A stretch of 56,532 bases of DNA, taken from Seison nebaliae. Its lineage: Eukaryota. The notes beneath the pieces are model-generated. The model saw only the letters and a program-made list of their open reading frames with translations. It made no database searches and was not told the DNA's origin. The translations under genes were made by a program, and so were the position numbers. Where the stretch lies: assembly GCA_023231475.1 (NCBI GenBank), contig JALJEE010001598.1, forward strand, positions 1 through 56,532, written 5' to 3'. Of this stretch, positions 12,421 through 50,890 are shown one piece after another; the stretch's first letter is position 1, and each line of letters starts with the position of its first letter.

Positions 12421-14197
12421 ATGAAGTTGGCTTTCCAGCCAGCCACCTTCTTCTTCTTCTTCCTTCTGTCCATCGCATTAGTCGGAAGTTTCTTTTCATT
12501 CTCCTTCTTCAACTTCATTCTCCTTAGCAGGTGAGCCAAAATGTCCACGATGCAAAACGATGAGATGTCCATTGGGACAAATTGTCGATCCCGAAACTCA
12601 TTGCAAGTTATGTAGATGTCGCGAGACACTCGATTCGCCTTGTCAAGTTAAAACTATTCAAGTCAACTCTTTCTTCACTAAACTCAACTAGACGATAAGT
12701 TGTAAAGTGGATGAAACTTGTGTGGCAACAGACAACGGTTTACCCAAATGTCTACCAAGTTCCCAATTCGATTTTTTTTTTCAATTTCATTTAAATTTTT
12801 AAAAAAGAAATGGTGGAATTAGATAAATATTGTCCGGTTGCATTCAATTGCCCATCTTCACCATGTTCAACACATTCGCAATGTCAAGATAAATCTTCCC
12901 AATTATTATGTTGTCAAACAAAATGCGGATCTCAAGTTTTCCTCTCAAATTTCTCATCATAAATTCTTCATACTTCTTCTAAAGTGTGTCAAATCTTGCA
13001 ATAAAATGTTTTCATGTAATTTAGAATGTCCCGATGGACTGAAGGAGGACAAATATGGTTGTTCGATTTGTGAGTGTTACCAACCATGTACAAATTTCCA
13101 TTGTCGACGACAATACGAGTTTGAAATTTTTCTTTCTTCAAACAATTCTCTCCTTCTATAGATGTATTGAGATGAATACTCCACGATATTTATCAGATCG
13201 TTGGCTATTCTTCGATTCACCAATAACGGCCAATGTCGGACGTTATAGTATACCGAAGAAAATACCAATTTGTCGTAAAAGTTTCCTCAAATTTACTCAT
13301 TTGACAATTTAAAAATTTGTTCAGTTATCCGAAGTGGTTCCTGTCCGTTGAATGATGTGCCTTTATTGAAATCGTGTGCAAATACGAAATCATGCGAAGG
13401 GGACGGTGAATGCAATATTGGAGAGAAATGTTGCAAACATGAACGCTGTAGGAAAATATGTCGACGTTAGAAAAATTTCTAGTTTTTTTTTAATTTCGAT
13501 TTTTTTCCAGAACAATGTCCTTATTTGAACAATTGTTCATTGAAATGTAAATTCGGTCTGGAAATCCTGGCGAATGCGTGTATGACATGCAAATGTCATG
13601 ATCCTTGTGAAAAATCAAAATGTCCTCCCGGAAAAAAATGTCGTCCATTCACCAAAGATCGAGTTCAATGTGTCGATGGTTCTTCTTTCATAATCTCACA
13701 AATCATTTCCTCCGTTTTTTAAGAGAATAAATATGGACTGTGTCCTTCTAAAGGCAAAGTATCAATCAATATAACTGAAACGACATGCAATGTTGATGCT
13801 GATTGTAAGTGGACACATAAATGTTGTAAAAATTATGTGAATGGGAAGATCTGTGCAAGTTCTCCTTCAACTACTACCTAAAAAGGAATTAATTATTTTC
13901 CATTTCCTGTTCTTTCCAGTTCCTTGTGAGAAGACTAAATGCACCAATAATTGTTTCATGGGAAGTTATAAAGATGACGAATATGGATGTCCCACCTGCA
14001 AATGTAAATATGACGAATTGAAACAAGATAATATTATGCGATATTGTCCAGTTAGGAAATTGAATTGCTTCTAAATTTTTTTCAAAAATTGTTCTTAATT
14101 TTTTTTTTTATTTTAGATCGTCTGTCCAGCTAATATGAAATGTAGATGGAATGTACGATATAATATCCATCATCCAATGTGTGTGCCCATCACCTAA
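12421..14197 (+). CDS. Secreted Cys-rich WAP/antistasin multidomain protease-inhibitor-like protein, 11 exons
   Basis: Signal peptide MKLAFQPATFFFFFLLSIALVG; antistasin-like repeats (CNLECPDGLKEDKYGCSICEC, CTNNCFMGSYKDDEYGCPTCKC); WAP-like repeats (RSGSCP..CEGDGECNIGEKCC, KYGLCP..CNVDADCKWTHKCC). Introns start at 12488, 12647, 12759, 12936, 13119, 13281, 13466, 13679, 13859 and 14051. Confidence 0.85.
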
Positions 14198-14345
14198 CAG
14201 AATTATCTAAATTTTATACAAACATTTTTATTAACTAATCTCATAAGTCAAAAGTATTTTATTTTTAATTTATTACAACGTTGAACCTAGATCATTTATT
14301 TTTTACCTTTTTTCGAAATTAACAATAAATATTTATCACCCAATC

Positions 14346-15774
14346 TCAATTAAGATCGTCTTTCATCTCATGTAAATATTGTTCAGTTCGTTTCATATTT
14401 TCAGCTAGTGACCGATGCATTTTGGAATTGCCTCGCAACTTTCCTCCGTAACTGTCTCGATAATCATTCGCTAATATCTGTTTTTTCGGTCTCAATTTAT
14501 TCTTATCCAAATCATTCAACACATCGACATTAATGAGATTCTTTGGCATATTCCCATCGATTGTATATCTCGGTCCTTTCTTCTTCTCCTTCTTCTGAGC
14601 GAGTTCGGGAAGACGAATATCGGAATTTGTAGAACGTCTCCTCGCTGCAGTTCGAATATTCCTTTCTTTCATTCTAATACGTTTCGATACAATTTTATTC
14701 TTAGCTCGACAATATCGATAGATGATGAGTGGGGAAATGATTGCCATTAATAACAATTGAATGATTGCTGTGACGGTTAACATGGCGATGCTCCAATTAC
14801 GATCACGTAGAAAAGTTGGTTGGAGAAAAATACTGTCGACATATTTGACGACAATTGGAACTAATTTTTCCTTAAAAGATCCATCGATAAATGAACTCAC
14901 TTTACCAAATTGAATATTTCGAATACCGCGCAAAATGGCCGCTAAATGATGAGAATGAAAGTGAAATAATTAAATATTAATTAATTAAAATAATTATTAA
15001 TTAAAAATATTATTAAACGATGACATGTTGGACAACGTAAATTGCCCAATTTTATGGGAGTAGTTAAATTACAATGGGAAGTTCCTTCACAAATTTGAGC
15101 TATTTAAATTTAAAACAGTATTTAAAATATTAATTATTAATTAATTAAAACCGTTAGTTAAATAATAATTATGAACAGTTACAAATAAAGTGTCTTGTCT
15201 TACACGACATTGAAGAAATGAATTTGATTGTAGATTAGCTCGATAAACTATGAGTGGACATGAAGCACGATCACATTTTTGAGAATCGAGAATATAATTA
15301 TGATCTGTGTCTTTTATCGTTTTCTTCAATTCATTCCTTCGATGTCGAAAAGTGAGAAATTTGGTGAATTCGACACGCTCCACTATCTGACTACTATGTC
15401 CTTGAATGACGATCCATTCAATGGAAGTTCTCCTCGTCACATCAGTCAAACGGAAACCACAATGTAATTTAACATAATTCTTATCATAAACAATCAGATT
15501 GTCACCTGACCTCAAAAAAATTTTAATTGAACAATGATTCATGATGATTGATAAAATGGAAACGATTCGAATATGTAAAAGGACCGAAATGTTTCGGATC
15601 GGTTATTTCTAATTTGAACGCACAATTCTGATCACTCGATAATGCCGTTTCAGGAATATGATTATTGAATGTCTTCAAAAGACAATTCATCGTCTTATCA
15701 CATCCTCCACCACCCAATAGTGTAAGAATAAAAAACAAATTTAATTTATAACAATTCATGGCAAATTTTTTCAT
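14346..15774 (-). CDS. Type I membrane protein with Ig-like domain, 4 exons
   Basis: Signal-like N-terminus (ATG at 15774 or 15759); VKLHC..SIEW..LIVY..LQCRV Ig-like pattern; TM WSIAMLTVTAIIQLLLMAIISPLIIY followed by a basic tail; three frame-preserving GTT..AG introns. Confidence 0.6.
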
Positions 15775-15800
15775 TTGCCCCTTTATCTTTTTTGTAACAA

Positions 15801-16778: not shown

Positions 16779-17462
16779 GAATCTTTTTAGTTAGAAGAAA
16801 TACAGTCAATCAAATTTTTACAAACGCATCCACTAAATAAACTTTTCAAAAAGCTTACTCTTCATCTACATTCCAACTATCATTATCTTCTTTAATAAGG
16901 TAAAAAATTCAAATTATAAAAAATTTCATTTTTCATCTCCTACATTTCATAACTACACAAAATATAACCCTTATTTCAATATTTTTAATTTCTCTTCCGA
17001 TTCTATAATATATTCTTCTATTTACATATAAATTTTCACGGAGTTAATCAATTGAAATTATTCAAGAAATTATACAAAATTTGTTTTTTACGTTAACTTC
17101 AAAATTATAAGAAAATTACTATTGGCGTAAGAAAACTATTATTGTGTAAGAAATGTTTCATTAAACATTGCTGTTAAATTAATTAATTAAACTAACCCTA
17201 AAATTGACAGAGGGGAATGTTTTCAGATTGAAATTTTTGGAGAAGAAACTATAAAATTAATAAATGATAAGTATAAATGATAAGAGTATAAATTGAAAAG
17301 AAAGATAACAGATTTCAAAATAATTTTCTTATTTAAATTAAATGAAATAAATAAAAAATATTAAATGGAAATATTATACTGTTCTCCATTCAATCGTTGG
17401 CCATTACATGAAAATCAAATAGAAGAGAAATATCAAAGTTCATTCTTTTCCAATTAAATGTG

Positions 17463-20400
17463 ATGGAGGATTACGAATTGTTTGAACGAGGTCATCATAA
17501 CCTCTTGTTCGAATCGACAAATTATTCGATCGATTCTTTCGCTTATTTCCGTTAGATTTTCATGTGGAATATTTTCATGATTCTCTTCGATATTTCTAGG
17601 AAATAAATTATATTTCGCTTGTCAGAACGATGTGATCAATTACAAATTAGAAGGTGAAATTAAAAATCTGTTGAAATTCATTAATTGATGTAAAATTGAA
17701 AATTGCAGAAGGAAAAATTGAGATGATGAATCGATATCAAAATGTTCTGAAGAAGAAAGTGACACAAATGATGATCGCTGAGGAATTGGCACAAATTCTC
17801 GTGGTGACGAATGGTTGAGAATTTGATTCTTTTTTTTTTAAATTTAATTTTAATATTTCAGATTATTTATTGACATGTCACACATTCTCCAATTTCACTC
17901 AATCACCAATCACCGTCATAAAAGATGTGAAATTTATCGATCTTGATGTTATTTCTATTTAATCATTTCTAATTATTAATTCTAATTAGACTGATGATAA
18001 TCGAAATACTTATCTGTTAATCGCGAATAAAAGAAATTATAGTATTCAATTATTCAAATGGACGGGACAAGATTTCTTCCAACAAACAGTTAAATTCTTT
18101 AATAATTTAAATTAAATAATTAACGCTTAATTTAATAATCATTAATTGAAGGCTCTTTCGTTACCGGGAGCGATAAAATCGGCAAAATTATGTGGGAAGA
18201 GTGTCTATGTTTATGTTGATCGTGAAGGATATTATCAGATCGATATTCAAAGTGGAGCAGCACAACAATTATATGGAAGTAATGGAAATGTTCCACCCAT
18301 TATCGAGACAATCAAATTACAAAATACTGAACGTGATCGATCAATGAGATTATGCATTCTCCAACTATCCAAAGATTCCGTCACCACCAAATCCAAAGAG
18401 AGTTCCAGTGTTGGATTGATATTCGACGAGAATAAAACTTTGTTGACCGACATCGATAATCAAATGACGTGGTCGCAAAATCCGACGAAATTGATATTTC
18501 TCCATCCATTCGTCATCGGTTTTCTCATCGTTTCTTTTTCATTTAAATTCATTTTTTGTTTTCAGGAATTAGTCGTGAGAAAGTACAAATTAAACGATTA
18601 TATGGATTGTTGAAAATGTTGGATAAATTCGAGTATGGTCAATTGGATGTGAAACATATTCAAAATGTCGATGTTTATGCTTTTGTTCGGAGATCCAAAT
18701 CGGAAATGAAACAATTAATTCCCATCAAACATGTGACTGTGGATGAGATGTTGGTGAATTCTCTTTTTTCTTGTATTGGAAATTTTTATTTTTTAATTTA
18801 ATATTTTTTTCAATATTTTTTTCATTTTTAATCAATAGAAATCAATCGATATTCGTCGCTGGTGATCATCGAATGATTAGTATTCAGAAGAAGACGTCAC
18901 ATCAAATTCAACAATATCTCAAATCGAAACGGGAATATGAAACATTGAGAGAATTAATCGAAGAAGATTTACATATTGACGAATTGGAAAAAAAAGATCA
19001 TTTTTTCACTCTCAATAATTTGACTGCGAATTCTCATTTCGGCAACGGGAATTATGGTGCAGCATTCCGTTTATTCAAAGAAGTTCGAACTGATCCAACA
19101 CATATCCTTCATCTCCGTCCTGAATTGTTACCGTCCTCGATAAAAATGGAAAATGAGATATTGGAACATTTATCGATTATGGTCATCGAATCGATTCGAG
19201 ACGATAATCGTCGGAATGATGAACGAATGATTAAACGAATTCAAAACGACGAAACTTTAGAAGAAATGACGAATTTTTTGAAATTTCATCGATCGGAATT
19301 ATTGAAAAAAATGGAAACGATTCAAAACGATTTCGATCCAGAATTCAATCCATTATTGAAGGAACAGAAACCAGTCGATTCGGCTCGTATTTGTCTCATT
19401 CTTATCGATACGGCAATGATGAAAATTTTCATAGGAACAAAAGAATTTGGGAAATTTATTGATCATCCGAAAAATTCCGTTCCGATAAATGAAGTTGAAA
19501 TGGTGATCGGTTTCCAAGAGAATGAATGGGAGGAAATGGATTGGAAGAATTTAGCGAGTTTTTATTTCAATAAAAAATCATATGGGAAATGTTTCGATTT
19601 ATTAAGAAAGAGATTGAAGACGAATGTGAATGAAACGATTTTGGAATATTTGTCAAGAATTGATGATAAACATATCGATATTCTATTCGAACAATCTATT
19701 CAATTAATTAGGAGAAATAATAATATAATTTATGATTTATTTCCGTTGAATTCACCAAAATGTTTAGCAGCAATTCATACGGAAGAAATCATCAAATTCA
19801 TTGAACGAACGATACCCAACGAATTAAGAGATTATCTTCTCCATCTCAAAGAGAATTGGAAAGAATTGTCAATGGAAAATTGTCGATTAATAAACGGAAA
19901 ATTAATTTTGACTTTATTCGGAATTCTTTTAGAATTTATTCAAATGAAAAATGTGAGTTTATCAGAGAAACAAGTTAATAATTATACCAATCAATTAATG
20001 ACAATTATTACGAATGATGACGAGGAATATGATGGAAAGGAAATCATTCATCAATTAAATGTTCATCCAATCACGTCAGTTATGACGAAAATCGATATTT
20101 CACCATCAATTATTACCACATGTCATTATCTGATTTTGGTGAAAGTTCACGTTTATGGACAATTACATCTACATAATGACTCGTTGGATTTACTCATCAC
20201 GCAATTGAATGACGAGAATGCACTACACGAATATCTCGATCGACATTGTCATTCATCCACCATCGAAAATGTTTCCTTCAATTTTCCTGTTCCTCTAACG
20301 AAATTTCCAGTTAACAATGGCGTTGGTGAAGTGTTTGTTGAAGGAGAAGAAAGAAGAAATGTTAGTGAAAGTTCTTGATAATAGAATGATTTATTGGATG

Positions 20401-20847
20401 GATAAATCGATGGACAATTGTCAGGAGAAGATCGGGAAAATTAAAGAAATTCTCAATCTCATCAAAAAATCCCAATTGAATGTTTCGTTGAGAAAAACGA
20501 AAAATTTCATCATCTCTTCTCTAGGTCTTATCGAGAAGAATTTAAAAGAACTTTATTTGCAGAAAACTTTATTACAAACACAACAATTATCTGTTAGAGA
20601 TTTTTTTCATTTGTTTTTTAAATTTTTGTATTGGAAAAGTTGGAAGAGAAAAGAATCGCAGCTGAAAGTGAAGTTTTCATTCTACGAGAAAATACGACAT
20701 GCGCTATTTGCATGAGAAGAATACGTATTAATGAATGGTTAATTTTCTTCATTTATTCTCCATAATTTCATTAAAACATTTAGTGCATTCATCAAATATC
20801 GAAATAAGAATTCGGTTGTTCATTTTGGTTGTCATAAAGAGAATTAA
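17463..20847 (+). CDS. VPS39: Vam6/VPS39-like HOPS subunit (CNH domain, C-terminal Zn motif), 11 exons
   Basis: CNH-like N-terminus (QLFKW, ALSLPG, MTWSQNP..LHPFVIG); central FKEVRTDPTHILHLRPELLP and LIDTAMMK; C-terminus CAICMRRI..AFIKY..VVHFGC. Divergent, so TGFBRAP1 is not excluded. Confidence 0.75.
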
Positions 20848-21069: not shown

Positions 21070-21522
21070 GCTGCAAAATGTGGAGTTAGAAATCTTCCAC
21101 GTACAAAGAGCATATAACCGAGCAATACGTATGTTACTCGGATGTGGCAAGCCTTTTAATAGAGCATTTATGTTCCATGTTAGCGGTCTGAAACCTTTGC
21201 CACTTCTCTTAAGTGGAACGATACTTGAGAATACTCGATTCTGTTGCGACTTCCGAACTCGCCGTACCGTCTTTCGTTCAGTGTGAAAAATTTGTTTCAC
21301 TGCTAAGTTTTTTTTGTCATTACTAAGGTTTAATTACTCCTAATACCATAAATGATTTCCGAATTCTACTGTCAAATTTTAACATATTATTTCATGTGCC
21401 TGATTTGCTGCTTTCAAGAATAGATCAGACCAAATCATTTATTTCCGATGATTCACCTAGTGAGTTATCTTATTTTCTTCTTCATTTACCCCCTGGGAAT
21501 TTGGTTTTATAATAAAAAAAAA
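21070..21522 (+). mobile_element. 5'-truncated LINE 3' end
   Basis: QRAYNRAIRMLLG resembles an ORF2 C-terminus, followed by a 3'UTR ending AATAAAAAAAAA; tail matches 80-142. Confidence 0.6.
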
Positions 21523-23428: not shown

Positions 23429-25045
23429 TCATCTAGTCTTAGTGAGTGAGGAACATCCCAAAAAACTGTTAGCTTGAGTACTCTGTAATTCCAATGCATT
23501 TAATTGGGAGTCGATCGAGAACACTGGTCCATCCAACCACAATAAATCGAACCCTCCAATTTTCGTTTCTTTTCCATTTAATCTAAATTTGTATTTGGAG
23601 AACTATATAGAAAAGGAAGAAAATAAATTTAACTTTCCTTCCATATCAACCACATCGAATACATCCGACAATAAACGATATTTCAACTCGTAATCTTCCT
23701 GATTACTATGAACTAATGATGGAGATGCATTCACTTCCACTAACCATCTGATTTAACCGGAAATTTTGAAAATTTCTAATTTCGAAATTAAATAAAAGTT
23801 CTAACGCTTTTAAATCATCACCTAATAAGATATCATAACCATACAATTCGAAACAATGTTTATCATTGATGATATTCTTTTGAACTGATTTCAATGATGT
23901 GATAATCACATTATCGATTTCTTCCATTAATTTATTGATTCGATCTCTCCCATGAATTGCAGTCAAAAAAATTCTCAGTCGTTTCAATGACCATTTACAT
24001 CCTTTCTCAGCGTCATAATCTGGTGCAGTCTTCTGCACAGCAACATTTGTTAAATGAACATCTAAAAATGAATTTCATGAAACTGAAAATTTGAAAATTC
24101 CAACAAGTATCAGCAATCGATTCCATCGTATATCTCGTATTTGAAAATCGAGCGAAACCTTCTCGATATAACCAAATTTTTAATGGAATATACTAAAAAA
24201 GAATATAATTCACATTTATTTAAAACAACCAACACTTGTTACCACAACATAAATTCTTAAGTCAAATTTCCGTCCGCCAATAAGAAACGGTTTATCGATA
24301 TATTTTTGTACAACATAATCTTTCGGAATTTCCGCTTCTCGTTGTTGTCTTTCGAATTGACTAATATATTCATCACGTCGCCACTCACAAATATCTTTCA
24401 ATTCACGAAATAGAAAAATTCCTTTTCCTTGACTCTTCGCCACCGGTTTCATTATCCATACCGTCTCCGGACATTTTTTATATTCCTCAACGAACATATG
24501 ATATTCCGACTATTCTCAATCCAACAAACATTATTAGTTTTCGTTCACTTTCAATAGTTCAACTAACAGGCAATTCATAAGTTGTCGGATAGAAATCACA
24601 TCTGGAATTAGTTTCCTTATCGAATTTTCAATAACAAGTTTAGAAATTAACTGAGCGGTGTCGGGACTTCCTAATTTTTCTAGCTGTCGTCTATGACGCT
24701 TCAAATTTTTTACCATCAGATTCTTCCTGGTCAATTCGTAATGATTACGAAAATGATTAATTTTAGCACATTCATCAGTAATTCCTTGATCGAAACATTC
24801 TTTCATTATAGTTGTATCTGCCCAAAATATATCCCAAGGCTCGTCACTAAACAACGAACAGCTTTCAATTATTTCCAAATAATCAAATCATCAAACTTTG
24901 CTACTTCTACCCAACCACGGCTGGCCATAACAACATTGACAGTTGGTTGAAACGAACATCTGAAACGAATTGGTCTATCACTAATTCCTGGACGATTCTT
25001 ACCAACTGATGTCTTCACCGGTGCAACTGATTTATATCCCGACAT
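23429..25045 (-). CDS. TTLL9: Tubulin polyglutamylase TTLL9, 8 exons
   Basis: [78 protein letters not shown]; seven GTT introns restore the frame. Confidence 0.93.
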
Positions 25046-30726: not shown

Positions 30727-31455
30727 TTAACCAAATCTTTTCACGACTTTCGGTGGTTCAGCTGCCACTATGCCAATCTGCGATAATCGTCTTAAACATT
30801 TCTGTGATAAATTCCCAAATTTCTCATGTCGGGGTACTTGTTCGTAGGTAACTAGATCATTATTCTTCTGATCTGAACTTCGTTCTAATAATCGATCGTA
30901 ATAATAAAGCGATTTATCAACACCTGCCATATGAGATTCCATAGCAATAAGTTTCTTCTTTAATGGTTGTTTCTTTTTTTTCGATATGAAGAACTTTTTC
31001 TCATCACCTTTACTGACACGAATAGATGGTGGATATACTCGTGGAATTATCTCACTATTTTTCATGCCATTACTTATCATTTCATTCATGTCAATCATTT
31101 TATCGAGATGAGGAAACGTCGTATCATCCTCACCATCTACATCGGTTGTTTTCTCCGATTCGCTAGTGATGGGAAGATGAGTAGCGGAAATTTTTTGTTC
31201 AAGAGCCGAAAATGTTTTTTGAATATTCAATTCTTTTTTACGATGTAAATTAAGTACTTTTCTCGCCGTAAATGGTTTCTTGTTTGAATTGAAATTGTTT
31301 TTATTTGAGCAAAATGAAACTTGTTTCATCAATGATGATAACGTCGGTTGTTGATATCGAGGAGTGGAATAACAACCTTTTATCGTTGACAAAGAAGACG
31401 GATGATTCTTTAGAAGATTATCCAACTTCATTCCGTAAGAACAGGTGTAATCCAT
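30727..31455 (-). CDS. Hypothetical protein, 242 aa
   Basis: Uninterrupted ATG ORF in AT-rich DNA between two genes; PRYQQPTLSSLMK resembles the PRY..PT.SS..K motif of microtubule-associated proteins. Confidence 0.6.
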   Translation of the reverse strand: MDYTCSYGMKLDNLLKNHPSSLSTIKGCYSTPRYQQPTLSSLMKQVSFCSNKNNFNSNKKPFTARKVLNLHRKKELNIQKTFSALEQKISATHLPITSESEKTTDVDGEDDTTFPHLDKMIDMNEMISNGMKNSEIIPRVYPPSIRVSKGDEKKFFISKKKKQPLKKKLIAMESHMAGVDKSLYYYDRLLERSSDQKNNDLVTYEQVPRHEKFGNLSQKCLRRLSQIGIVAAEPPKVVKRFG

Positions 31456-31539
31456 AACGATTTTTCGTGGCCGTTGTAGCCAACAGAAAAATTGAAAAAA
31501 TTAGATGAAATTGAAAATTAAAGAATTCGAATTTTTATT

Positions 31540-32758
31540 CTAATAAAATCGACAGCGGATTTTATGTACCGGCGAGTTGTTAATTAATTGTTGGTATTTC
31601 TTCGCCATTCGCCATAAAACATAATCGATATCGATCGCTTTCAATTTACTCTTTTGTCTCTCCTCAAATAATTTCACTAATTTCTCCACCGCAATTATTG
31701 AGGCTGATCGAATCTCAACTTCCATCGATTCACCTGATTCGAACAAATGTCCATTATTAATTTTATTTAATAATTCTTCCGAATATTTTATCGTACTAAA
31801 ATGAACGAGAATTTGTGGAACTCTTCGAAATATGATGAAATTATGATGATAATTTAATAAAAAAAAATATTTTGAATTTAAAATAAAACCGGTAATCAGC
31901 GAACATTGTCAATAGATTTATATCATTAAATTGACATAATTCATTCTGTGGAAGTTGTGAATGAAGGTCGGAAATTAGAATTTGTGGTTTCTTCATAAAA
32001 TAAACTAAACGAATATAATGAAATTAATTCAATTAAATTCTAATCAAACTAATTTTTCCTTTATAATGAGCAAAATCTCGAAAAAAAGGAAAATTATTCC
32101 ATAATAAACAAAGGCATTTCATGGCACTGTTATCGCCCAATTTCAGGAAATTAGAAAAACTTCCCCCAAACTCCTCCACAAGTATCTTACCAGCTTCTTG
32201 ACAAATTCTCACTCGTTCTTCTTTCATTGGAATATCTAAATTTTCATCAACTAATTCTTCCAATTTCTTCCATTCATCTATCGTCAATTTATGATAAAAT
32301 TCTGGTGACCAAATAGGAACGTTTTTCTTTTCTAACACGTATCGAATTTAATCAATCCACCAAAGTTCTAACTTCGATTAATTGATTGATGAAATTACAA
32401 AAAGAAGCATACCCAGTAAATCTTTTACGATCTATATCGATCGTATTATTTTCAATTGTCTTCGTCTCAACATCTTCTTTCCAGAACGAAAAGTTTAATG
32501 CATCAACAATAAAAATCCTTAAAGGAATAAATTAAAATCTTGAACAATTGAAATTGAAATTAACAAATCTATAAAGTTTGAATCATTTTTAAGTCGATGC
32601 AGTTCCATATTGGACTCTTCGCATTTCTCCTTCGCCATTTCATCAATCAATTTCTCAAAATCTTCTTCTTTTCCTAATTTCACATGATCACTATTATCGA
32701 CGACGAACTGAGTCGAATCGATAATCATTCTATGCGACCATTTACTGATACTTTCCAT
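31540..32758 (-). CDS. QNG1: Queuosine salvage protein (C9orf64/QNG1), 5 exons
   Basis: IFIVDALNFSFW, FPFFRD, LTMFADYRVPQIL, EVEIRSASIIAVE, IDYVLW, HKIRCRFY. Confidence 0.9.
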
Positions 32759-33004
32759 TCTTATTTACTTTTCTCAATCACTCTCCGAATTAAAGCTACC
32801 ACACTAAATTTAATAAATAACTTGTCCAAAATGGAATATTGTCACTCAATATTTCCTCAATCTCAAACATCTTTCAATCATCAAAAAATTACAGAAGTTT
32901 AGTTCAAAGTCATCATTCTTTTCTTTACAATTATTTAATAATTTTTATTTTTTTGTACGATAAATATATGATGAAAAAATTGTTAAAAAATGAACAATTT
33001 CCGA

Positions 33005-33456: not shown

Positions 33457-34621
33457 ATGAGTTTATCACAAAAAGAAATTTTGTACGAAATTGTAATTCG
33501 AAATATTCCTAATGATTGCGACAGAAAAGTTTTGAATGATTTCATCAATAATTATAATGCAGTATCTTATTCAATTAATGCTATGGACGACAGATATGAT
33601 TTGTTAGTGTTTTTATGATAATTCTTAATTCAAGTTTAATTCTAATAGATTTGAATTGAAATTACATTTCAGTAATCGAATAGACGCAGAGAATTTCGTC
33701 CACAATGACAAGATGCATCAAGTACAGAAGATGCCTGGGACGACATATAATCGTTTGAATGTTCCTGTTGATCAATTAGCGTCGGAAAATCCGATACCTA
33801 TCGAATTGGTAACATTCGTTGATCCAGAATGTGTGGCTCATGCCAGAGTGATTAACACAGGGAAACGTTTACAAATTTTATTGGAAGTTCGACGATCGAA
33901 TTCGAACGAGATGACTCGAATTGAAGAACAACCGATAACACCGATTACAACCGACAAGGTTTCAATTGATGAAATTCCGATAGAAATGACACGAAAGTTT
34001 TGGTGTAATATCACGTCGAAAATATATTTCCTGATAGGACTTGAACATTATTTCCCGAAACATCATGGTCTCTGTGATGATTTCTTTTTGGCACATGCTG
34101 TTAATGAATATTATTTTTTCGGAAGAACATATGCTCAGAATGTGCGTTTACGCATTTTGGAGAAAGAAATGGCTACATTTGATGAAACACAAAGTAACAA
34201 TAAAATTTCACTTAAAGCAGGTGATTTACGAGTCGTTCAATATGCATTCAAATTAGTCAGGTTAATTTTTTCATTTTTCACATTCAAAAATATTTTATTT
34301 TTATATATTTTTTTATTTATTTAAATATTTCTTATCAGAGTGTATGTTGTAGAAAATGAGCCGAAATTATTTCTAATCGATTATGGGAATTTTATCGATT
34401 CAAAAGAAGTGCAATCTTTTCGTGATACCACTCCAAAAATATGGTTCACAGCTCCATTAATGTTTGCTTTTAGATCGAAGAATGAAAATTTCAAAATGGT
34501 AACAAACTCGCAATCTGACACAATCAAATTTCAAATTACACATACCGAATTAAAACGTCAAGAACAAAATCAATTCTATTCGATAATTGAGTTTAATGTG
34601 ACGAACAATATATATAAATAA
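33457..34621 (+). CDS. RRM-like plus Tudor-like domain protein, 3 exons
   Basis: IVIRNIP and LHFSNRIDAENFV (RRM-like); LKAGDLRVVQY..VRVYV...LFLIDYGN (Tudor-like); introns at 33603-33648 and 34261-34338. Confidence 0.65.
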
Positions 34622-34698
34622 AGAATATTTGACAATTAATTAATCGTTTTTTTTTGTTTCCTGAATAAATATCTTTTTACAAATACTCACTTTCCTCC

Positions 34699-37600
34699 TC
34701 AAATATCGATGACGGCGCTATGATATTTATTACCGGTTGATCCTTTCAAAAACTGTTTTATTCCACTTGCTTTCCCGAAAATTAATTTCGTTGCAGGATT
34801 CTCACTCGATAATTTTACGCACGAGGTCGTTGAGGTTTCATTGAGTGGAGTATCGAGACTTTCAATTTTCGCATTTTCAATAATTTCCATTTTTTTCTCT
34901 GAAACGATTATGAAATTACCATGAATGAAATAATGAATAACGATCAGGAATACTTGGACGACGAGATCGTTGTTTATTATCGATTGCAGTATTGGAAATC
35001 GATTCCATCACTTTAGAAGAGAATGATTGTTTGTTTTGTAAACGTTTCTGCCACAATTCCCGGAATTCATGGTCGGAGAATTCAGCGGCATCAGATACCA
35101 CTTCAAGTGTTATACGTTCTTCTTCAAGTGTTTTCGATGTGAGAAATTTTGAGATCATTGTTCGTACGAGAGCACATGGAATTAATTCAGATTCACGTAA
35201 CTCATATTGGCGATCTAACGAACAGGTTAATACAGGTTAAATTTTTAAATATTCTTAAATAACTTAAAAGTTTCAACTCGTCGATTTCTTTCTTATAAAC
35301 ATTTACGGATGATAAATCGGAAGATATTTCCAACCATTTTTTTTCCGATTCCTCTTTTTGTCTCTACAATTTCATTATTCTTCTTCAATTCCCAAATCAT
35401 ACCAACTTTTAATTCATTAATTTCCATTCTTTTATTTTCGATTGTCTTATTCAATTCTCGTTCCACATAAATCTTCCTATCCAAATTTTCATTCAACACA
35501 GCACTCTTACCTAAACAGAATCGATAAAGAAATTTATGAGGATAAATTCCAACCGGATAATATACGAATCGTTTCTTCAAGTTCATTGATGCGATTCTCA
35601 TTCTCATTCATCAATTTATTCCAACGTTCCTTTTCTACTTTGTCATGTATTTTCTTCTTTTCCGCCAAATGCAAAATTGCTGTACTTCGTTCTTCTTTCA
35701 TTAACGCTTCTTTCCTATCATAAAATTTAATTTTTATTAATTTTTTAAAGTATCAAAACTTTATCTCATCCATTCGTTGTTTGAGACTAACAAGTTCTAT
35801 CTCGTAATTTTGACATCTTTTTCGTAACTCATCCTCTCGTTCCGCCTGTTTCAAACCAGTTATATCAAGTTCTGATTCTTTCTCTATCAAATGTTGTTTC
35901 AATCGTTCGAATCGATCTTTCCATTGATCTCTTTCATTTTCTGTTGATTGTAATACTAATAATTTATTGTTAATAATTATACATTTCATTTCATTCCATA
36001 AAGAAATTCAAACATTTTTCTATTTTATTAATTTCTTTCTGTTTCCTCGAAATTTCTTCTTGATCAATCTCAAATATGTTCAAATTAGGAAAATTTAGTT
36101 TTCCACAAAAAATACTAACAAATTCATTATTCAAAAAGTTTTCTAATTCCGGTTCCAATTTACTTAAACGGTTCGAATAGTTCTTTATTTCTTTTTCAAT
36201 CTCTTCATGTTGTGTCATCAAATCTAAATTGAGTTCTGGAATCAAAAACATTCAAATATTTTAAGAGCGATCATTGAAATGGAAACTTCTTTCATCTTCG
36301 TAATTTTGGGATAACTCGAAACATTTCTCCTTACGACTAATGAGTTGTTGAAGATATTTTTCTTTTTCGTCAACTGCGATTTGAATTTCTTCTCCTCTTA
36401 TTTCTAATTGAGTATTCAACTCATCAATTTTGTTCTTCATTTTATGAATCTCATTAAATTTCTCCGATAAAATTTCTCCATTTTTTTCTTAAAAAAAACA
36501 TACATTCATTTAATTGAAATATTTTTAGAAACAAACCAATTTTTTCCAATAATTGCTTATTCCTCGATTGTTCATTTACAATTATTTCCTTATATCTCGC
36601 CTCTTCTTTCGTCAATCTTTCATCGACGTCTTCCACCAATTTTTTGAATTCTCCAACTTTCATCTCTAATGATTGATTCTCGTTTCTAATTCTTTCATTT
36701 TCCTGTTCTTGCGATTCATTCTGTTCAGTTAAATTTGCATTCGTTTTCAATAACTGCTCAATTTTTTCATTCATTTCATTTAACGTTTCTATCGTTTTCT
36801 CTTGAACTTCTTCAATTTTATTTTTTTTTTCTAAAAGTTTCGATTCGTAACATTTCTTCATTTCTTCCTTCTCATGAGATATCTTCTCCAGTTCGAATTG
36901 AATTTTTTCAATATTCTGATGGAACTCGTCGTCAGATCTTCGAGAATCAGTTGCAGATAAATTTTTTATTTCATCCAATTCCGACGAAATTTCGATGTTT
37001 TCTATTTTCATTTTTTCCATTTCAGAATGCAATTCAGATTTCTCTTTTTTAACTTCCTCTAAACTCCCAAGCATCTCAATATTCTCCGTTTCCATTTTTT
37101 TTAAATTGGATACAATTTCACATTTTTCATTCCTCACAAATTCCAATTCTGTTAACATTTCCGATTTTTCTTTCTCCATCTTTTCTAAGTGGGAAGAAAT
37201 TTCACAATTCTCCATATTAAATTCTTCGATCTTAGTTGAAAATTCTGAATTTTCTTTCTTCAAATTTTCCAATTCTATTGAAATTTCAGATTTCTCCATT
37301 TTGAACTTATTTAATTCCCGTTTGCAATTATCTTCTTCCGTTGTGTATTGGTCGAGAAGATTTTTCAATTTGTCATTATCATCGTCCAATTCAGTAATAC
37401 GTTCTTGTTGAGCTTGAACGTCGCTAGTTAATGATTCACAGGTATCGATGAGGATCAGTTTCTCCTTCTCAAATTCTTCTTCGATTTGAACTTGTTGAAT
37501 TTGATATTTATCTTCCAACACGATTCTATTTAATTCCATTTCCTTTAATTTTTCATTAAATTTATTTTCATTTTCCAATAATTCATCTTTCAACAATTTA

Positions 37601-38880
37601 TTCTGATTCGATGTCTCAGTCTCTTCCGCATTTACATTTGACGATTCTTTTAGATGTTTTATTCGATTTTCTAATACTTGAATTTTCTCTTGATGGAATT
37701 GAGAACTGCTCATCAAATTTTCGGAAAGACCTTCATTCTTTTCTAATAATTTCACGTATTTTTCTCGTTCATTTGCCAATGAATCGTTTAGGGACTTATT
37801 CTCTTTATCGAAATGTTCCATACGATTCTTATCTGAAATAGGAAATTTATTATATCGATTAAAACTGAAGGAAAAATTTACATTTGTTATCTAATTCTTC
37901 GTATTGTTCGGTAAGATGCAAATGTTGTGTGGTCAATTTCTCGATAATATGGTTCAAATCGTCTTTTAACTTCTGTTGCTTTTCCATCAATTCATCGTTC
38001 GATCTATTAGAAACGATCAAAATTAATTTTTCGATTTTCCCGACAAGATTTTAAGAGAACTTGAGAGATTCGTTTAATTTGTTTTGTAGATTTTCATTTT
38101 CAATCTTAATGGAGTCGGAATGTTTAATTGATGACAATAAACTTTCATTTTCCTCTTTCAATTCATAAATTTCTGCATTTAATTCATTATCTGTCCGTTC
38201 AACTTCTTCTTTCTTTTTCAACAGTTGTTGTAATCGGAAAATTTCCTCGTTTAATACATCAACTACTTTCGAATTAGATTCATTCAAATCTAAAGTAGTG
38301 TTAGAAGATGTGGGTGAATTATCGACCGAATCAATTCGTCTCCTTTAAAACATGAATAAAATTTCTTTAAAATAGAATGAAAGAACTTTAATTTTTTATT
38401 GAGTTCGAGTAACATCGTTATTCTTTTCTCTCTAGTTCCCATCTTTTTTTTCAAGTCTCTAATTTCAGTGTGGTTCTTCAACAATTCTTCGTCATTTTCA
38501 CTGGTTTGTTGAAGCAAATGTTTCCGAAGTCTTTCAATCTCACTTCCCATCTTCTCAATCTGTTCCTCCTTCTCATAATAATTATGTGATAATGTATTCT
38601 GTTTCTAAATGAATTTTTCATGATAATAATTTGTTCAAAACGAAAACTCTAAACTTCTTTATTTAAATTCGCGATTTCTTCATTTGCCAATCGCAATTTT
38701 TCTTTCAATTCATCGACCTTCAATCAAATTCAAACGAAATATTACTTTAATAATTTTCTAACTTCGATAGTATCAGCATCATCATCCTCATCTGTTGATG
38801 TGAGAAGAAATTAAATTAAAAAAAATTTGTCTCAACTGAAAAGAAAAACCTTTCAATGAGTCGAGAACACGATCGGACAT
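34699..38880 (-). CDS. Long coiled-coil protein, golgin-like, about 16 exons
   Basis: E/K-rich heptads joined by frame-preserving short introns; C-terminal IPCALVRTMISKFL..ITLEVVSDAAEFSDHE resembles GRAB/GRIP domains. Orthology uncertain. Confidence 0.7.
36965..37305 (-). repeat. Coding 14-residue (42-bp) tandem repeat, about 8 copies
   Basis: EKSEISIELENLKK / ENSEFSTKIEEFNM / ENCEISSHLEKMEK / EKSEMLTELEFVRN / EKCEIVSNLKKMET ... Confidence 0.75.
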
Positions 38881-40460
38881 TTGTTTAAGGGAACCGGGTA
38901 TAAAATTTGTAAACATTTTCTTTCAATGTGACCAAACAGGAACAAATAACTACTTTAATTATCAAAAAAGTAATAGAACAATATTTAAAAAAACAACTAA
39001 AGAAAAGAAACTTTTGCGCTCAAGTTATTTAGTGGATTTGATTAAAAAGAAAATTTTGTGTATGTTTCAATTGTTATCTGTCATCCTTCTCATTTGACAA
39101 CGACTTTCTTTGAGAAAAAAAGGAAAAATTATTAGATTACGTAGATTTCGGCAAACGAAAAGTGTTGAGAGAAGGAAAATTGTAAAATAATAAATTTCTT
39201 TCGAATTTTTTATTTGAAAATGAAGCTAGACGATGAGCGATGAGGATCTTCTTATTAATTGAGTAAGCGCAACTGTATTGAACTGGCATTAATAAAGGAA
39301 GAATTAATTGATTACATAATTTCCTCAATCAATACTAGTGCGAATACTCAATTAGAATAAGTGGATAAATGAATTGTGTAAAAGAAGAAAACAAAATATT
39401 TCCCTGATTCTTCTTCGAGATATTTCGATTCTTTTATTTATCTTCCAACGAATCGATTAGACAAATTGAACAGCTGTATTTATATTCCTTTATTCATGTT
39501 GATTGTGAAAAGTGCTTTTCTTCTAATTGACTTCTCTCATACATTTTTTTATCGTTCCTAACATATCAATAATCCGTGACAATTGGAACATTTCTTTCAA
39601 ATTAATGAGTCATTTCTTTCCCTAAATTTATCTAATTCCATAAAATTTCCATCATTTACTTCCCATCGTAAACGTCAATATTGATTTGCGATACATCTGC
39701 TTCAGAACTCCTCAGGATTCAGAACTATCAAATTACAGTTATCTAATAGTGAACGAGAATCAGAGAAAGTAATTGACGACCACGCTAAACAATTTAAATA
39801 AGGAAATATTTTCAAACTTAATATTTATTATCAAACGCCTCCGTATCAATTGTCTCTATCACAAATAATTTACTTTCCAATAATTATTTCTCATTCATTC
39901 CCCCAAACTCATGTTTTCTACAAAGCAATTAATCGCAAATAATTGTTAAACTTATTATGGAATAGAATGCCATTGATTCATTTCTTTAGTTAAACTTAAC
40001 GAAAAGTTGTGATAAATTCAATATTTATTTATAAATCGACTCGGAGATGAACATGCGTTTGAACCCCTAACAGTCTCCCCAATGAACCAAATGACACATG
40101 AGAATCCTAAACTAAAATGAGGTGGCAAACGGAAACTATTTATCTTAAAAATTAGAAATAATATTATGGAAATAAATATTGCTTTTCTTTTCGAGATAAT
40201 CTTGAAAAAATTGAATTAATAACTTGCGAGTTTTTAATACATTTCTCTCCCCAATATCATGACAATAATGACACATATCAATCGTTAAGGTCAATTGTTT
40301 TACAGTTATTTTTTAATAATGAAACTAGTTGTAATGAACGAATTGGGAAATTTTGAATATTTTTCGAAAAGTTCATGGTCGAATGAATGGAATATAAGAA
40401 ATGATAATCAAAAATAATTGAAAATCATATATATAAATTTCCATTTTACCGTTTTCATTC

Positions 40461-40646: not shown

Positions 40647-40809
40647 TTTTCATTCAATATTTCTTGAAGAAATTCTTAGTTGTTTAAATTTTTCATTTTA
40701 AAAAGAAAATTAAAAGAGAATTGTTTCAATTGATATTAGTTCATTTTGCGCGTCAAATTCGAAAATAAATCAGTCTTATCTTGTTAGTTAAAATTATTTG
40801 AATTGAATT

Positions 40810-41460
40810 AGATATTGGAAATTCAGATGATATTTGGATTCTTGACACATCCATTTACCAGAGACTCACACCACTGCCACCGATGTATAACTGTGAAAGA
40901 TAAGTCGACCAATGCTGTATCAGAACATTAAATCGGAAAAATAATAAACAAAAATCAAACTTCTTAAACTTCCCCAACGTTTCTGGTAAATATGCCTGAT
41001 TCAGACTTTCTTCTCTTTTTTTGTCAATAATATGTTTAATATAATATTCATACTATCATCTAACTTGTGTCTCCAGTTACCTTCATCGACTCTTTAAATT
41101 ACAATAATTAATTATTATGTTGTAAAGTTAAAAAACAAACTTCTCACCTTCCTTACCGACACCTACTCACGTCCTATGAGTTCCAATCCGACATTTTTGA
41201 TTGACCGAGATGGAACTTTAAATTTCGGTAAGATTTAAGATATGGATGGAAAAATATGAAGCAAACTTCTCGTCTTCCATGGTCCTCACCTAGAGAACGA
41301 AAAACGTTCTATTATCTACGGTGGTGGTTATCCCCATGGGATATTATATCTGAATAATAAAATTAGAACTTATAATACAAATAAAAAATTAATAAAAAAA
41401 CCTAATACAAATACAAATGTTATATTCTGAACTTCTATTTGTCTAAATGACTTATATATA
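40810..41460 (-). other. Candidate spliced non-coding transcript or multi-exon pseudogene
   Basis: Four co-oriented GTT..AG intron-like segments of about 49-55 nt separating more GC-rich exon-like blocks; no open frame found. Confidence 0.45.
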
Positions 41461-46666: not shown

Positions 46667-48540
46667 ATGAATTCAATGATCCTCAACAGCACACCAATGT
46701 TCAATTCATCGATCGAAGAAAATGTGGCTACATCAAACCGAAGTTCTGACGACAGTTCACCATCATCCTCATTCAGTACGAATGTTTCCTCAGCCGATTC
46801 CAACAATCTGATGAAAGTTGATGGAAATAATGGAGAAAAGATGGACATGTCAGAAACGTTGATGAAATTAGCGTTCCATTATATGCAGAATGTCAAGAAA
46901 ACTTGCGATTCAAAAGAAGATCAAAATTTCATCAATAATAAACCGGATAACTTAATTAGATTTGATTGTGGCAAACGTAAAATGCCATCAATCGATCAAC
47001 ACATGATCGGAATGAAATATGAGAAAATCAGTCAGAACGACATTGAGTATAAACGAGAGACAGATATCGGTGGATTGGCGGTGAATGTCGATTGTGTTTT
47101 TCTTCCTTCCGACGAAATCGTTCAACAGAAACAGCAAATTGTCGAATTATCAAGGAAAACAGGAAGTTTCATTTTCTTCATTTCATTACTTGACAATTTT
47201 CCCATTTTTAGATTTAATCTGTTTAGTTTGTGGAGATATTTCCAGTGGAAAACATTACGGCGTTTTAGCTTGTAACGGTTGTAGTGGATTCTTTAAGAGA
47301 AGTGTCCGTCGTAGATTAACTTATCGGTTAATTGATTCAACTTCTTTCCTTACCTTCTAATTGTTATAGATGTCAAGCGAATAATGGTGAATGTTTGGTG
47401 GATAAGGCACATCGGAATCAATGTCAAGCATGTCGTCTAAAGAAATGTATCCAGATGGGAATGAATAAAGAAGGTTCATCATCGTATTTTTAATATAATT
47501 GAAATTCTGAGTTTAGCCGTACAGAACGAACGGCAACCAAGAACCACAACAATTACCGGTTCGAACGGTTTATCTGCTTATCAGAAAGGATCATATTACA
47601 TGAAAGCGAAAGGAAAAATTGATCATTATATTGGCGATCAACAAAACATGATAGATACAAGTTCCATTAAAAATCTTTTTTCATTAAATAATTAAACATA
47701 GATCAAGATTCGTCGTTAGAAAAGATTCAAATGAATTATCGAATGTTAAACGTGTTGAATAATATCTCTGAAGGAAGATCTGCTGAAAAAGTAGTCGGGA
47801 AACAAATAGCAAGTGACTTATTGGATCGTCGTTTATGTCTCATCAAATTCGCTAGTCATTTGGGAATATCGAACCAATTTTATCAAATTATCGAGAATCC
47901 ACTAACCAGTTTCCGTTCAATCAAATCATGGGCAATGAATGTTCCCGAATTCCAATCGTTAAATACCGACAAACAAGTTTCTTATCATTTTCATGAAGTT
48001 TATTATCATTCTTTTTCTTCTTTAATTTTGAAAGAATGAATTACTAAAACAATCATGGTTAAGTATTGTCTTTATCGATATATTAACAGAGAATAAATCG
48101 AGTAATACCAACACCGTTAATGTTAATAACAATGGAACTCGACATAGTGTTGAACGATTAATCATGCCATCTGAAGACAATAGTGAAGAGAAATTTCTTT
48201 TCAATAATTTGAGCAACACTCAAATTTATAATTGTAAAAAATATTTGTTATTTAAAATAGGTTAACATTTATAAAAACTATTCAAATTCGACAAGAAATT
48301 AACATTTTTGCAAATTTTTTAGATGATATTGAATTATTTGGAATTAATATACCCTCTTCAACTTTACATACTACGATTATCGATGAATTTACAACATCGT
48401 TTCTTTATTATCAGAATAATAAACCGTTTGGAATGGAATCGATTGCTGATATGATGAGGAAAGCCTTTATGATAATGGTAGCACTTGAGAATATTTATCA
48501 AAAAACTTATAATTGGTCTCTCAATGTAATCGATGAATAA
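46667..48540 (+). CDS. NR2E3: Nuclear receptor NR2E3/PNR (Hr51-like), 7 exons
   Basis: [69 protein letters not shown]. Introns 47166-47211, 47327-47369, 47474-47516, 47661-47701, 47977-48034 and 48261-48322. Confidence 0.9.
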
Positions 48541-49175
48541 ACAATAAATTATCTAATTATATTCTCCCATTAAACATTTCATCTCAATTCTATCAATTTT
48601 AGATTCTTATTATTAAATTTATTCGCCATCTACCTTCTTTTCATTTTTTCAGTCTTCAGAAATTTACCACTATGAACAATTTGTTAAGAACATTAATAGA
48701 ATTGTTAGGTAATTACGAAGTGGAAGAATATATTATAAGACAAAATGGAAACATCATGATGTGAAATAATAAATAAAATAACATCATCACATTTCAAGTT
48801 TTGATACACTATGTGAAACCCTGAATATTTTTGGTTTAAAAACTTTCGAATACAGTATACGTAATTTTCTTTAGTCAAAAAATATGAAATTAAATTATAT
48901 CAGTGATCAATTGAAGTTTTTTACTTTAAAATTATTTTACCTTATCACCGATTGTCAATAAAAAAATTATGGTTGACTAAGTCACTGACAACCACTTCGT
49001 TATGTATAATTTATTTTGGATTTTATAAGAATAATTAGGAAACTAAGGTAACTTATAATCAGTATAAACCTATAAAAAAGTAACAAGTCTAAAAACGATA
49101 TAATGAACTACAATAAGAAAACTTAAAAAGGAGTAATTTTATTTCAATTTTTCATGGGATTATCGTTTAAATTAT

Positions 49176-50890
49176 TCACAAGAGGAATTCTAAACGTAAA
49201 TGAGCCCGTTTCATTAATTTTAAAACGATTTTGAATCGATTATCTTGCTTCAAGTAATTGTTATAGATTTTTCTACCCTCAGCATTCTGCAATATCATAA
49301 TCAGGTTAATTGTGAATTAATAAAATTAATTAATTAATTATAAACTTTTAGGCAATTATTTGAATTTAAATTCACAAGTGCATTGTAACAACCGAATGAT
49401 ATGGCTGAAGAATCGTAAAGATATTCTTTTTCGCATTTCTCGATAACCTCCTTCGCTATACTCGACATTTGATTGAGGAATTCATTGAAATTACATTTTC
49501 CAGTTACGGGAACTAAAAGAATGAATGTCATTCGAGAATATTTAAAGAAGAACCTCCATATCTGGAGAAAAGACAATTATCTAATTCTTCATATTGAGTA
49601 CATTGGAAGAAACGGTGAATTTTTGGATAATATCCCACAAATGCATAACACATTTCCCCCTGAAATCCCATCAATATTTATGAAATTACAAATTTTAAAA
49701 CATCTGATCCTTCTCCCCAATGGATTGTTCGGTTTCGGTAACGATGGTCCGTAAATGATTCGTAATAGCAAGTAACTTTGATTTCATCTCCACGTTCTAT
49801 TTTAATTGGCTTTTCAAAATTGTGAATTGGAGGATGATGAAAATCATAATTCTGGTCATCGACAACGGTAGAATGGATACTGGTTTTATTATCTATACGA
49901 CGTATCAATTCGACTTTGGCTCGGACTCCTGTTTAGTTACGATTCAGTTTTGGTTATTATCAATTAATTATAAACCTAAATAGTGAGTATGAATATGAAT
50001 TCGATTAAGATAAATATTCGTTTGACTCTCCAGCGCATCATTTACACAGAACGAAGAACAACTACCTTCTACTTTTAAGATTTGTTTACTCTCCGCTGGG
50101 ATGGTAATAGCATCTTGTCCGATTTGTACATTAGCTGCATTAAATCGTCGCAATTTCTTCGTGTAATATACACGCCATCCACTATTATCTAAAGTATATG
50201 AATAATTTGTCGAAAACGAGAGTCGAAGTGAACCATACATATTTTTCAGATGATTTGCATTATTGACATGAAGTTGAATATGAAATGTACGGAAACCGTT
50301 TTCTCCTCCAAGCAGGATTCCTGAATTGTAATGAGGACAAGTCCAAGCTGTCGTACCGTACGACCATTGGGCAGTCCATTCTAAACATTGTGCGCCAGCT
50401 ACCGATGTGAAACAATTCGTCGTAATCTGTTTTTAAATAATTATAAATTGAAGTTTAATTTATTTAACACTGGAAGAAGGAACGCCATTTTCACAACCGA
50501 ATAATATCATATGATGATCAGCTACTCGATTGGATATGAGAGGTTCGAAAGCAACAGCATGATATTCCTCATTCAAATCCAACGGGATCTTTAATGAAAT
50601 TGAACTTTTGTTTTCAAATTTTAATATATTAATTAAACTTCAAATTGTTGACAATAGTAGGTAGTTAATTGGGGAGGTAATGTTGTATTATCCAATCTCA
50701 ATTCGAATGATTGTAGAGGAAGATCATGAAATAAAGCTCTTCGACATTGCGCACCAGGAATGTCGTCGACAATAGCTAAAACAGAAAATACATTTCCCAC
50801 ACACATTAAAAGAAAAATTGTGAAGAGAATACCTAAAAAATTATTCATTCTCTGAAACATTATTCGTTGCAAACAAAGTAAGAAACTCAT
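49176..50890 (-). CDS. Copper type II ascorbate-dependent monooxygenase (DBH/MOXD1/TBH family), 8 exons
   Basis: TTYYC, DHHMILFGC, QLHVNN, DNSG, HIHTHYLG, YDFHH, GDEIKVTCYY, GEGSDGEMC. Exact start and stop uncertain. Confidence 0.88.

What the first reader, a model, noticed from the sequence alone, without database searches (positions are those of the whole stretch)
12488..50638. Rewired 5' splice-site code: almost every intron begins GTT
Seen: in nine multi-exon genes on both strands I reconstructed 64 coding introns and 62 start GTT (WAP/antistasin 10/10, Ig-like 3/3, VPS39 9/10, TTLL9 7/7, QNG1 4/4, RRM-Tudor 2/2, golgin-like 14/15, NR2E3 6/6, monooxygenase 7/7). Positions +4 to +6 vary widely (GTTTCA, GTTAAT, GTTCCC, GTTGGA, GTTAGA). 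Known: the usual U2-type donor is GTRAGT, read by the U1 5' end and the U6 ACAGAGA box, and +3T is normally a minority class. Inference: donor recognition has shifted in this lineage, through altered U1/U6 snRNA, changed U1-C/LUC7/PRP8/SNRNP27K-type factors, or length-based intron definition. Caveat: models are manual, but frame and homology fix many junctions independently of the GTT expectation.
Basis: partly seen in the sequence, partly recalled or inferred. Interest (0 to 1): 0.88.

Follow-up and report, generated by a model that had tools for sequence, protein, structure and literature searches.

The report
Animal whose introns start with GTT
In this stretch of DNA from the tiny marine rotifer relative Seison nebaliae, 46 of 47 introns mapped from transcripts begin GTT instead of the GTA/GTG that animals normally use, and textbook start signals nearby are skipped, so its splicing machinery likely checks the third intron letter in a changed way.

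Summary
Public protein records label the window's genes Seison nebaliae. A published transcript-to-genome table fits the window base for base. It gives 47 introns of 40-77 nt, all GT-AG; 46 start GTT and 1 GTA. The background is 41-69% (p ≤ 6e-7). Nine introns outside long reading frames are all GTT. Of the usual motif only +5G persists (19/47); +4, +6 and -1G are flat. Length alone cannot explain it: 35 non-GTT sites at usable distance are skipped, including AG|GTGAGA and CG|GTAAGG. The +1 shifted U1 register is not supported (+6G 2/47). The only U1 gene seen in DNA runs holding this window has the ordinary 5' end (owner probable, not proven), which weakens the Entamoeba-style compensatory U1 idea. 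Best guess: U2-type introns defined by length plus a +3U check at the U6 hand-over (0.45). All data come from one contig; U6 and the proteins were not seen. This scan noted GTT donors before in protists (Bonamia, foraminifers), not in this genome. Ten paper searches found no animal case.

The parts
12421..14197 (+). WAP/antistasin gene, 10 introns, all GTT
   Evidence: Public model P0127 mapped exactly; intron 13466-13510 also in a transcript; Pfam WAP and Antistasin
14280..15800 (-).
   Evidence: Transcript gaps; spliced open frame of 421 aa; no Pfam hit on two exon pieces
17463..20847 (+). VPS39-like gene, 10 introns, 9 GTT
   Evidence: Public model P0128; the +3-blind parse gives the same ten donors; no spliced transcript
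17654..17708 (+). Exception: AG|GTGAAA donor
   Evidence: Public model and +3-blind parse only
23429..25045 (-). TTLL9, 7 introns, all GTT
   Evidence: Transcripts, public model P0002 and a profile of 89 other-species homologues agree
31279..31320 (-). 42-nt frame-keeping GTT intron, spliced in one of two isoforms
31540..32797 (-). Queuosine salvage gene (QNG1), 4 introns, all GTT
   Evidence: Transcripts; PF10343
33457..34621 (+).
   Evidence: Frame only; first donor is 33603 or 33609, both GTT
34451..39110 (-). Coiled-coil gene, 15 coding introns (14 GTT) plus a GTT 5' UTR intron at 39011-38953
   Evidence: Transcripts; spliced open frame of 1162 aa
37833..37881 (-). Exception: AT|GTAAAT donor, spliced in two isoforms; no upstream GTT within 45 nt
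40731..41386 (-). Spliced transcript without a long frame (51 aa), 4 GTT introns; skips AG|GTGAGG (41289), CG|GTAAGG (41156), AG|GTGAGA (41147), AG|GTAACT (41080)
2297..2861 (-). Spliced transcript without a long frame (56 aa), 3 GTT introns
46676..48540 (+). Nuclear receptor gene, 6 predicted GTT introns
   Evidence: DNA-binding-domain junction 47327-47369 fixed by PDB matches; the rest by frame
48999..50894 (-). Copper monooxygenase, 7 coding GTT introns plus a GTT 3' UTR intron at 49122-49070
   Evidence: Transcript; public model P0121; Pfam

Best explanation
These are short GT-AG introns whose donor motif has shrunk to GTT with a weak +5G, and the +3U is likely enforced when the donor is handed to U6/U5 rather than by a re-written U1. 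Shown in this window: donors GTT 46/47, length 40-77 nt, +5G kept, -2A mildly favoured, +4/+6/-1G flat, strong GTRAG decoys skipped. Inferred steps: (1) the spliceosome is assembled across a ~48-nt intron (intron definition), which narrows the choice to one or two GT sites; (2) an ordinary U1 binds weakly and does not decide; (3) the site is accepted only if U+3 fits opposite U6 G44, as a G-U wobble or as an A-U pair if that U6 base has changed, helped by altered or lost hand-over proteins (SNRNP27K, PRP8, SNU66 type); +5G pairs with U6 C42 and exon A's with U5 loop 1. GTA/GTG is tolerated rarely, as at 37881, where no upstream GTT lies within 45 nt. The observation itself deserves about 0.97 for this contig and 0.9 genome-wide; the confidence given is for the mechanism.
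For: Predicted pairing to ordinary U1 is worse for used sites (mean -1.8 kcal/mol) than for skipped non-GTT sites (-3.6). The used site pairs best in only 16 of 32 contested introns, 17 of 32 with an A6 variant; length plus a GTT rule picks 29 of 32. This looks like a one-position check, not duplex strength. The single U1 contig laid in each of X1-X4 starts with the ordinary pairing sequence. Its depth in X2 (17.9) falls in the lower depth class seen (about 16-18 against 25-31). PMC11732430 section 9, part 1 of 2 states that +3 faces U6 G44, interacts only weakly when it is A or G, and that nematode snrp-27 mutants shift +3 choice. The Entamoeba preprint (passages) notes that +3U/+4U could improve pairing with U6 ACAGA, and that most lineages with atypical donors keep a standard U1.
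Against: U6 and the hand-over proteins of this animal were not seen. The U1 contig's owner is unproven: depth in X1 is 5.4 against about 15 for the window and about 8 for the lower class, the contigs are only 0.6-2.2 kb, and a host or other-organism tandem array is possible. A filter can hide contigs, and a U1 under 80% alike would not have been laid. The only printed case of fixed +3U (Entamoeba) has a compensatory U1. Ordinary U6 has G44 in all eukaryotes, yet most prefer +3A/G, so a wobble alone is not sufficient. +4 shows no U preference. The duplex energies ignore pseudouridine and proteins, and the 48-nt optimum was taken from the same introns.
Confidence: 0.45

Rival explanations
1. Entamoeba-type co-evolution: the working U1 has A at position 6 and pairs Watson-Crick with +3U in the normal register.
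For: Precedent: U1 ACAAAC with GUUUGU donors in five Entamoeba species (passages). +5G is kept in the normal register. An A6 U1 adds about one pair per donor (5.3 to 6.3 of 11).
Against: The one U1 seen in four runs is ordinary. An A6 U1 still does not make used sites the best binders (17/32). No A6 U1 was found in metagenome contigs (0 matches; 0 of 129), which says little about Seison.
Confidence: 0.25
2. Ordinary U1 RNA, but changed U1 snRNP proteins (U1-C, LUC7) or snRNA modification make U opposite position 6 the accepted state at the first recognition step.
For: Fits an ordinary U1 gene and a one-position rule. In tunicates, changed m6A on U1 and U6 is proposed to accommodate odd donors (PMC13326754 abstract and section 29).
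Against: No protein or modification data here. It must also explain rejection of AG|GTAAG-type sites that pair well with U1.
Confidence: 0.2
3. Ordinary U1 pairs in the +1 shifted or U+2-bulged register, so that U1 A7 reads U+3.
For: Would explain a fixed +3U with an ordinary U1. +7T is more common in used than unused GTT sites (24/46 against 6/23, p = 0.045). The lead came from earlier scan notes.
Against: The shifted register predicts +6G and +4/+5 A. Found: +6G 2/47, fewer than in unused GTT sites (5/23), +4A 16/47 and +5A 11/47, at or below background.
Confidence: 0.06
4. No changed code: T-rich introns and length-based definition give GTT by composition.
For: Introns are 47% T, and 40 of 58 internal GT are GTT. 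Length alone picks 24 of 32 contested sites.
Against: 46/47 against 0.69 gives p = 6e-7. Used sites are 46 GTT to 1; unused sites at 40-77 nt are 23 GTT to 35 (Fisher p = 4e-11). +4 to +10 follow background apart from +5G.
Confidence: 0.03

Closest known systems
Entamoeba transformed donors GUUUGU(U) with co-evolved U1 (Roy and Bowser, bioRxiv 10.1101/2022.06.08.495308; passages read)
   Same: +3U is near-fixed in GT-AG introns; +5G is kept; AT-rich genome.
   Different: Entamoeba is intron-poor with a strict six- to seven-base motif (96.9-98.5% GUUUGN) and a changed U1. Here the genes are intron-rich (up to 16 introns), only +3 is strict, +4 and +6 are flat, +5G is 40%, and the only U1 seen is ordinary. 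This is an animal.
[quoted passage not shown]
   Same: GT-AG ends and +5G; weak exon A preference.
   Different: +3 purine in 1/47 and -1G in 9/47 (background level), so neither class describes these donors.
Fritillaria borealis non-canonical introns (PMC13326754; abstract and section 29)
   Same: An animal lineage with a rewired donor code, explained by U6-side and modification changes rather than a re-written U1.
   Different: There 95% of introns break GT/AG and donors are G-rich; here GT and AG are intact and one position has switched to U.
+1 shifted-register donors (Roca and Krainer 2009; recalled, and named in earlier scan notes; paper not read)
   Same: Start with GTT, often after a non-G exon end.
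   Different: They need G at +6; here G is at +5 (19/47) and not at +6 (2/47).

Membership tests
U2-type spliceosomal intron | GT...AG ends, removed from transcripts | tested here: met
   47 of 47 transcript gaps are GT-AG
U2-type spliceosomal intron | Donor consensus GTRAG or AG|GT | tested here: not met
   +3 purine 1/47; -1G 9/47; only +5G is kept. This lowers 'ordinary donor', not 'spliced by the major spliceosome'.
U2-type spliceosomal intron | Branch-point motif | tested here: inconclusive
   CTRAY in 5/47 and YTRAY in 26/47 within 35 nt of the acceptor, in AT-rich sequence; no null computed
U12-type intron | RTATCCTT donor (recalled) | tested here: not met
   None of the 47 donors listed has it
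Entamoeba-type transformed donor system | +3U fixed | tested here: met
   46/47
Entamoeba-type transformed donor system | Strict GUUUGU motif | tested here: not met
   GTTTGT 2/47; 24 different hexamers
Entamoeba-type transformed donor system | U1 with complementary 5' end | tested here: inconclusive
   The one U1 seen is ordinary, but its owner is not proven
Entamoeba-type transformed donor system | Low intron density | tested here: not met
   7-16 introns in several genes of 1.6-4.7 kb
+1 shifted-register donors | G at +6, A at +4/+5 | tested here: not met
   +6G 2/47, +4A 16/47, +5A 11/47
U6-side donor shifts (METTL16/SNRNP27K type) | Changed U6 box, U6 methylation or SNRNP27K | not testable with these tools
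   No genome held; no snRNA in the window

The most novel reading that the evidence does not exclude
An intron-rich animal has swapped the +3 purine rule of the major spliceosome for an obligatory +3U across its genome while keeping an unchanged U1 RNA, and actively rejects textbook AG|GTRAG donors. Donor identity would then be set downstream of U1, at the U6/U5 hand-over or the catalytic core: a natural experiment on which step chooses the 5' splice site.
Probability: 0.45. Interest if true: 0.9.

Novelty: new variant of a known kind. Interest (0 to 1): 0.82.

Why it matters
The +3 purine is, after GT itself, among the most conserved donor positions in animals (recalled). The one printed case of a fixed +3U that I found is an intron-poor amoeba with a re-written U1. 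An animal with many introns, a donor reduced to GTT, skipped textbook donors and apparently an ordinary U1 makes a long-argued question testable: does U1 pairing or the U6/U5 hand-over choose the splice site? One small genome, its snRNAs and a few proteins would show which part changed, and the change could be tried in a yeast or worm reporter. It also matters for gene prediction in seisonids and possibly their acanthocephalan relatives.

Tried and rejected
No whole genome is held, so no genome-wide count and no inventory of snRNAs or splicing proteins. Rfam found no snRNA in the window (3 weak chance hits). No RNA holder was listed; laying X1, X2, X6, X7 gave DNA contigs only and no splice joints. 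The +3-blind ab initio parse was mostly GTT but made wrong calls in low-complexity exons (false introns in the coiled-coil gene, GTA/GC picks in WAP that transcript and public model correct); it is not used for counts. Region 51200-52300 gave no credible model and was dropped. The first intron of public model P0121 (2176 nt, GTT) is probably a false fusion, since the transcript starts at 50894; it is left out of the counts. A scan for an A6-type U1 in metagenome contigs found nothing. The record behind L113, the closest U1 to the one, is not held, so its taxon is unknown. A second lineage's donors were not compared; both read-laying runs were used. Ten paper searches gave no report of GTT donors in Seison, rotifers or another animal; subscription journals are mostly outside the library. 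A comparative splice-signal survey I wanted is not held, so I have no in-session +3T figure for other AT-rich animals. PMC4901422 (passages) only confirms AAGG[T/C]AAGT in Globodera. PMC10125929 (passages) had nothing on Seison donors; a find call on PMC10581693 failed on term format, so only its search listing was seen. Supplements of the bioRxiv preprint are closed. Supplement 2 of PMC8351084 is held cut; I read parts 1, 207 and 208 of 400, so more rows for this contig may exist elsewhere. Supplement 1 was not read.
Full report
Identity. An exon of the tubulin polyglutamylase gene matched a 421-aa NCBI protein at 100%, labelled Seison nebaliae, on a contig of 56,532 bases. Exons of the monooxygenase and WAP genes did likewise. 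No whole genome is held. The window is 31% G+C.

Public models. Mapping these proteins exactly onto the window gave TTLL9 7/7 GTT, monooxygenase 8/8 (the first, 2176-nt intron is probably a false fusion and is not counted), WAP/antistasin 10/10 and VPS39 9/10. For TTLL9, a profile of 89 homologues from other species ranked the GTT junction first at all five junctions that had frame-keeping GT-AG alternatives; two had none. In the nuclear receptor, the two DNA-binding-domain exons match positions up to 39 and from 41 of PDB chain 7xv8_A, which fixes GTT intron 47327-47369.

Transcript evidence. No RNA run was listed. Supplement 2 of PMC8351084 is a GMAP table of assembled transcripts on the species' genome. 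Rows found by block pattern fit the window base for base, and parts 207-208 hold the rows used. The 23 gapped rows give 47 distinct gaps. All are GT-AG, each with a single GT-AG placement, 40-77 nt long (median 49); 46 begin GTT and one GTA. Of these, 46 lie on the minus strand and one on the plus strand; the plus strand is otherwise covered by the WAP and VPS39 public models. Nine lie in UTRs or in transcripts whose longest frame is 51-56 aa, so coding frame cannot have chosen them. With the 19 introns known only from public models the count is 64 of 66 (Wilson 0.90-0.99).

More than chance. T follows GT in 41% of cases in the window and 69% inside these introns; p = 6e-17 and 6e-7. Against intron composition, +3T carries 0.95 bits and +5G 0.55 bits (19/47, p = 5e-9). 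+4 and +6 are flat. -1G is at background (9/47) and -2A is raised (28/47, p = 0.001). Among GT sites 40-77 nt from a true acceptor, used sites are 46 GTT to 1 and unused sites 23 GTT to 35 (Fisher p = 4e-11). Skipped sites include AG|GTGAGA, CG|GTAAGG, AG|GTGAGG and AG|GTAACT in the transcript at 40731-41386. In the 32 introns with a competitor, 'closest to 48 nt' picks the right site 24 times and 'closest GTT' 29 times; the 48 comes from the same data. So length does much of the narrowing, and +3U is an added requirement.

Register. Earlier scan notes on protists describe GTT donors read one base out of step. That form needs +6G. Here +6G is 2/47, fewer than in unused GTT sites (5/23), while +5G marks used sites (19/46 against 3/23). 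The donor is therefore the normal register with one letter switched.

The trans side. My first reading was a U1 with A opposite +3U, as in Entamoeba, where GUUUGU donors go with a U1 reading ACAAAC (passages). A metagenome scan for such a U1 found none. A general scan gave 129 U1 genes, 126 ordinary and none of that type. I laid the contigs of four DNA runs that hold the window on one invertebrate-type U1. Each run gave one contig, matching 77 of 90 letters from loop I onward, with an Sm-site-like stretch behind and the ordinary 5' pairing sequence in front. Its depth is 17.9 in X2 and 5.4 in X1, against about 30 and 15 for the window. One search also shows a lower depth class (about 16-18 in X2, about 8 in X1), which fits X2 and is high for X1. 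The four runs are at most two samples. I put the odds that this U1 is Seison's at about 0.7; a host or other-organism tandem array is the alternative, and filters or divergence could hide other copies. This counts against my first reading. Predicted duplex energies agree: neither ordinary nor A6 U1 singles out the used sites (16 and 17 of 32).

Mechanism. Shown: short GT-AG introns, fixed +3U, residual +5G, rejection of strong ordinary donors, rare tolerance of GTA (37881; no upstream GTT within 45 nt) and perhaps GTG (17654; model only). Inferred: intron definition by length; weak, non-deciding U1 binding; a +3U check at hand-over, where +3 faces U6 G44 and SNRNP27K affects +3 choice (PMC11732430 section 9 part 1). 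I give this 0.45, a compensatory U1 0.25, altered U1 proteins or modification 0.2, shifted register 0.06 and composition 0.03. U6 and the proteins were not seen.

Novelty. It works like the Entamoeba system in fixing +3U but fails its strict motif and low intron density, and perhaps its changed U1. Tunicates show another animal rewiring, of a different kind. Ten searches of the held library found no report for Seison or any animal; the genome paper mentions splice sites once, in methods. This scan has no notes on this genome but has unchecked notes on GTT donors in Bonamia and foraminifers. Limits: one contig, assembled transcripts rather than raw reads, no in-session figure for other AT-rich animals. 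Verdict: real, a new variant of a known kind, interest 0.82.

Noticed in passing
window, 47 transcript introns: The acceptor -3 position is relaxed: TAG 19, AAG 14, CAG 13, GAG 1. AAG at 30% is high for an animal (recalled).
   Followed up: partly
window 14280-16984 and 30612-32797: Single assembled transcripts span two same-strand genes (UCH plus the next gene; QNG1 plus the next gene), with spliced introns. Either assembly fusion in a compact genome or dicistronic transcription.
   Followed up: no
window, 8 of the 47 introns (for example 24602-24651, 31279-31320, 38718-38762): Retained in some assembled isoforms; unspliced RNA or real retention.
   Followed up: no
window 21108-21524: A ~400-nt repeat at about 30 times single-copy depth with 10-20% divergence among copies; related ends near 101-130 and 30690.
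   Followed up: no
window 25749-26875: A low-depth contig in X2 (4.5 against 26) differs at 154 letters over the 14-3-3 gene, as expected from a second lineage or a paralogue.
   Followed up: no
window 9088-11364, 15801-16790, 22542-23303, 25939-26715, 29383-30426: SCAI, UCH, copper transporter, 14-3-3 and a nucleotide-sugar transporter have intronless coding regions beside genes with 7-15 coding introns.
   Followed up: partly
window 52951-50776: The public monooxygenase model P0121 seems to fuse an upstream fragment; the transcript starts at 50894 and has a signal-peptide-like start.
   Followed up: partly
L053 and L090: U1 genes from metagenome contigs with changed pairing bases at position 5 (2 with A, 1 with G among 129), as expected for +4U or +4C donors.
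   Followed up: no
window 900-8500 and 53100-53950: Broken open frames that look like transposon remnants (endonuclease-like 7044-7892, transposase-like 5020-6060; read by eye, not searched).
   Followed up: no
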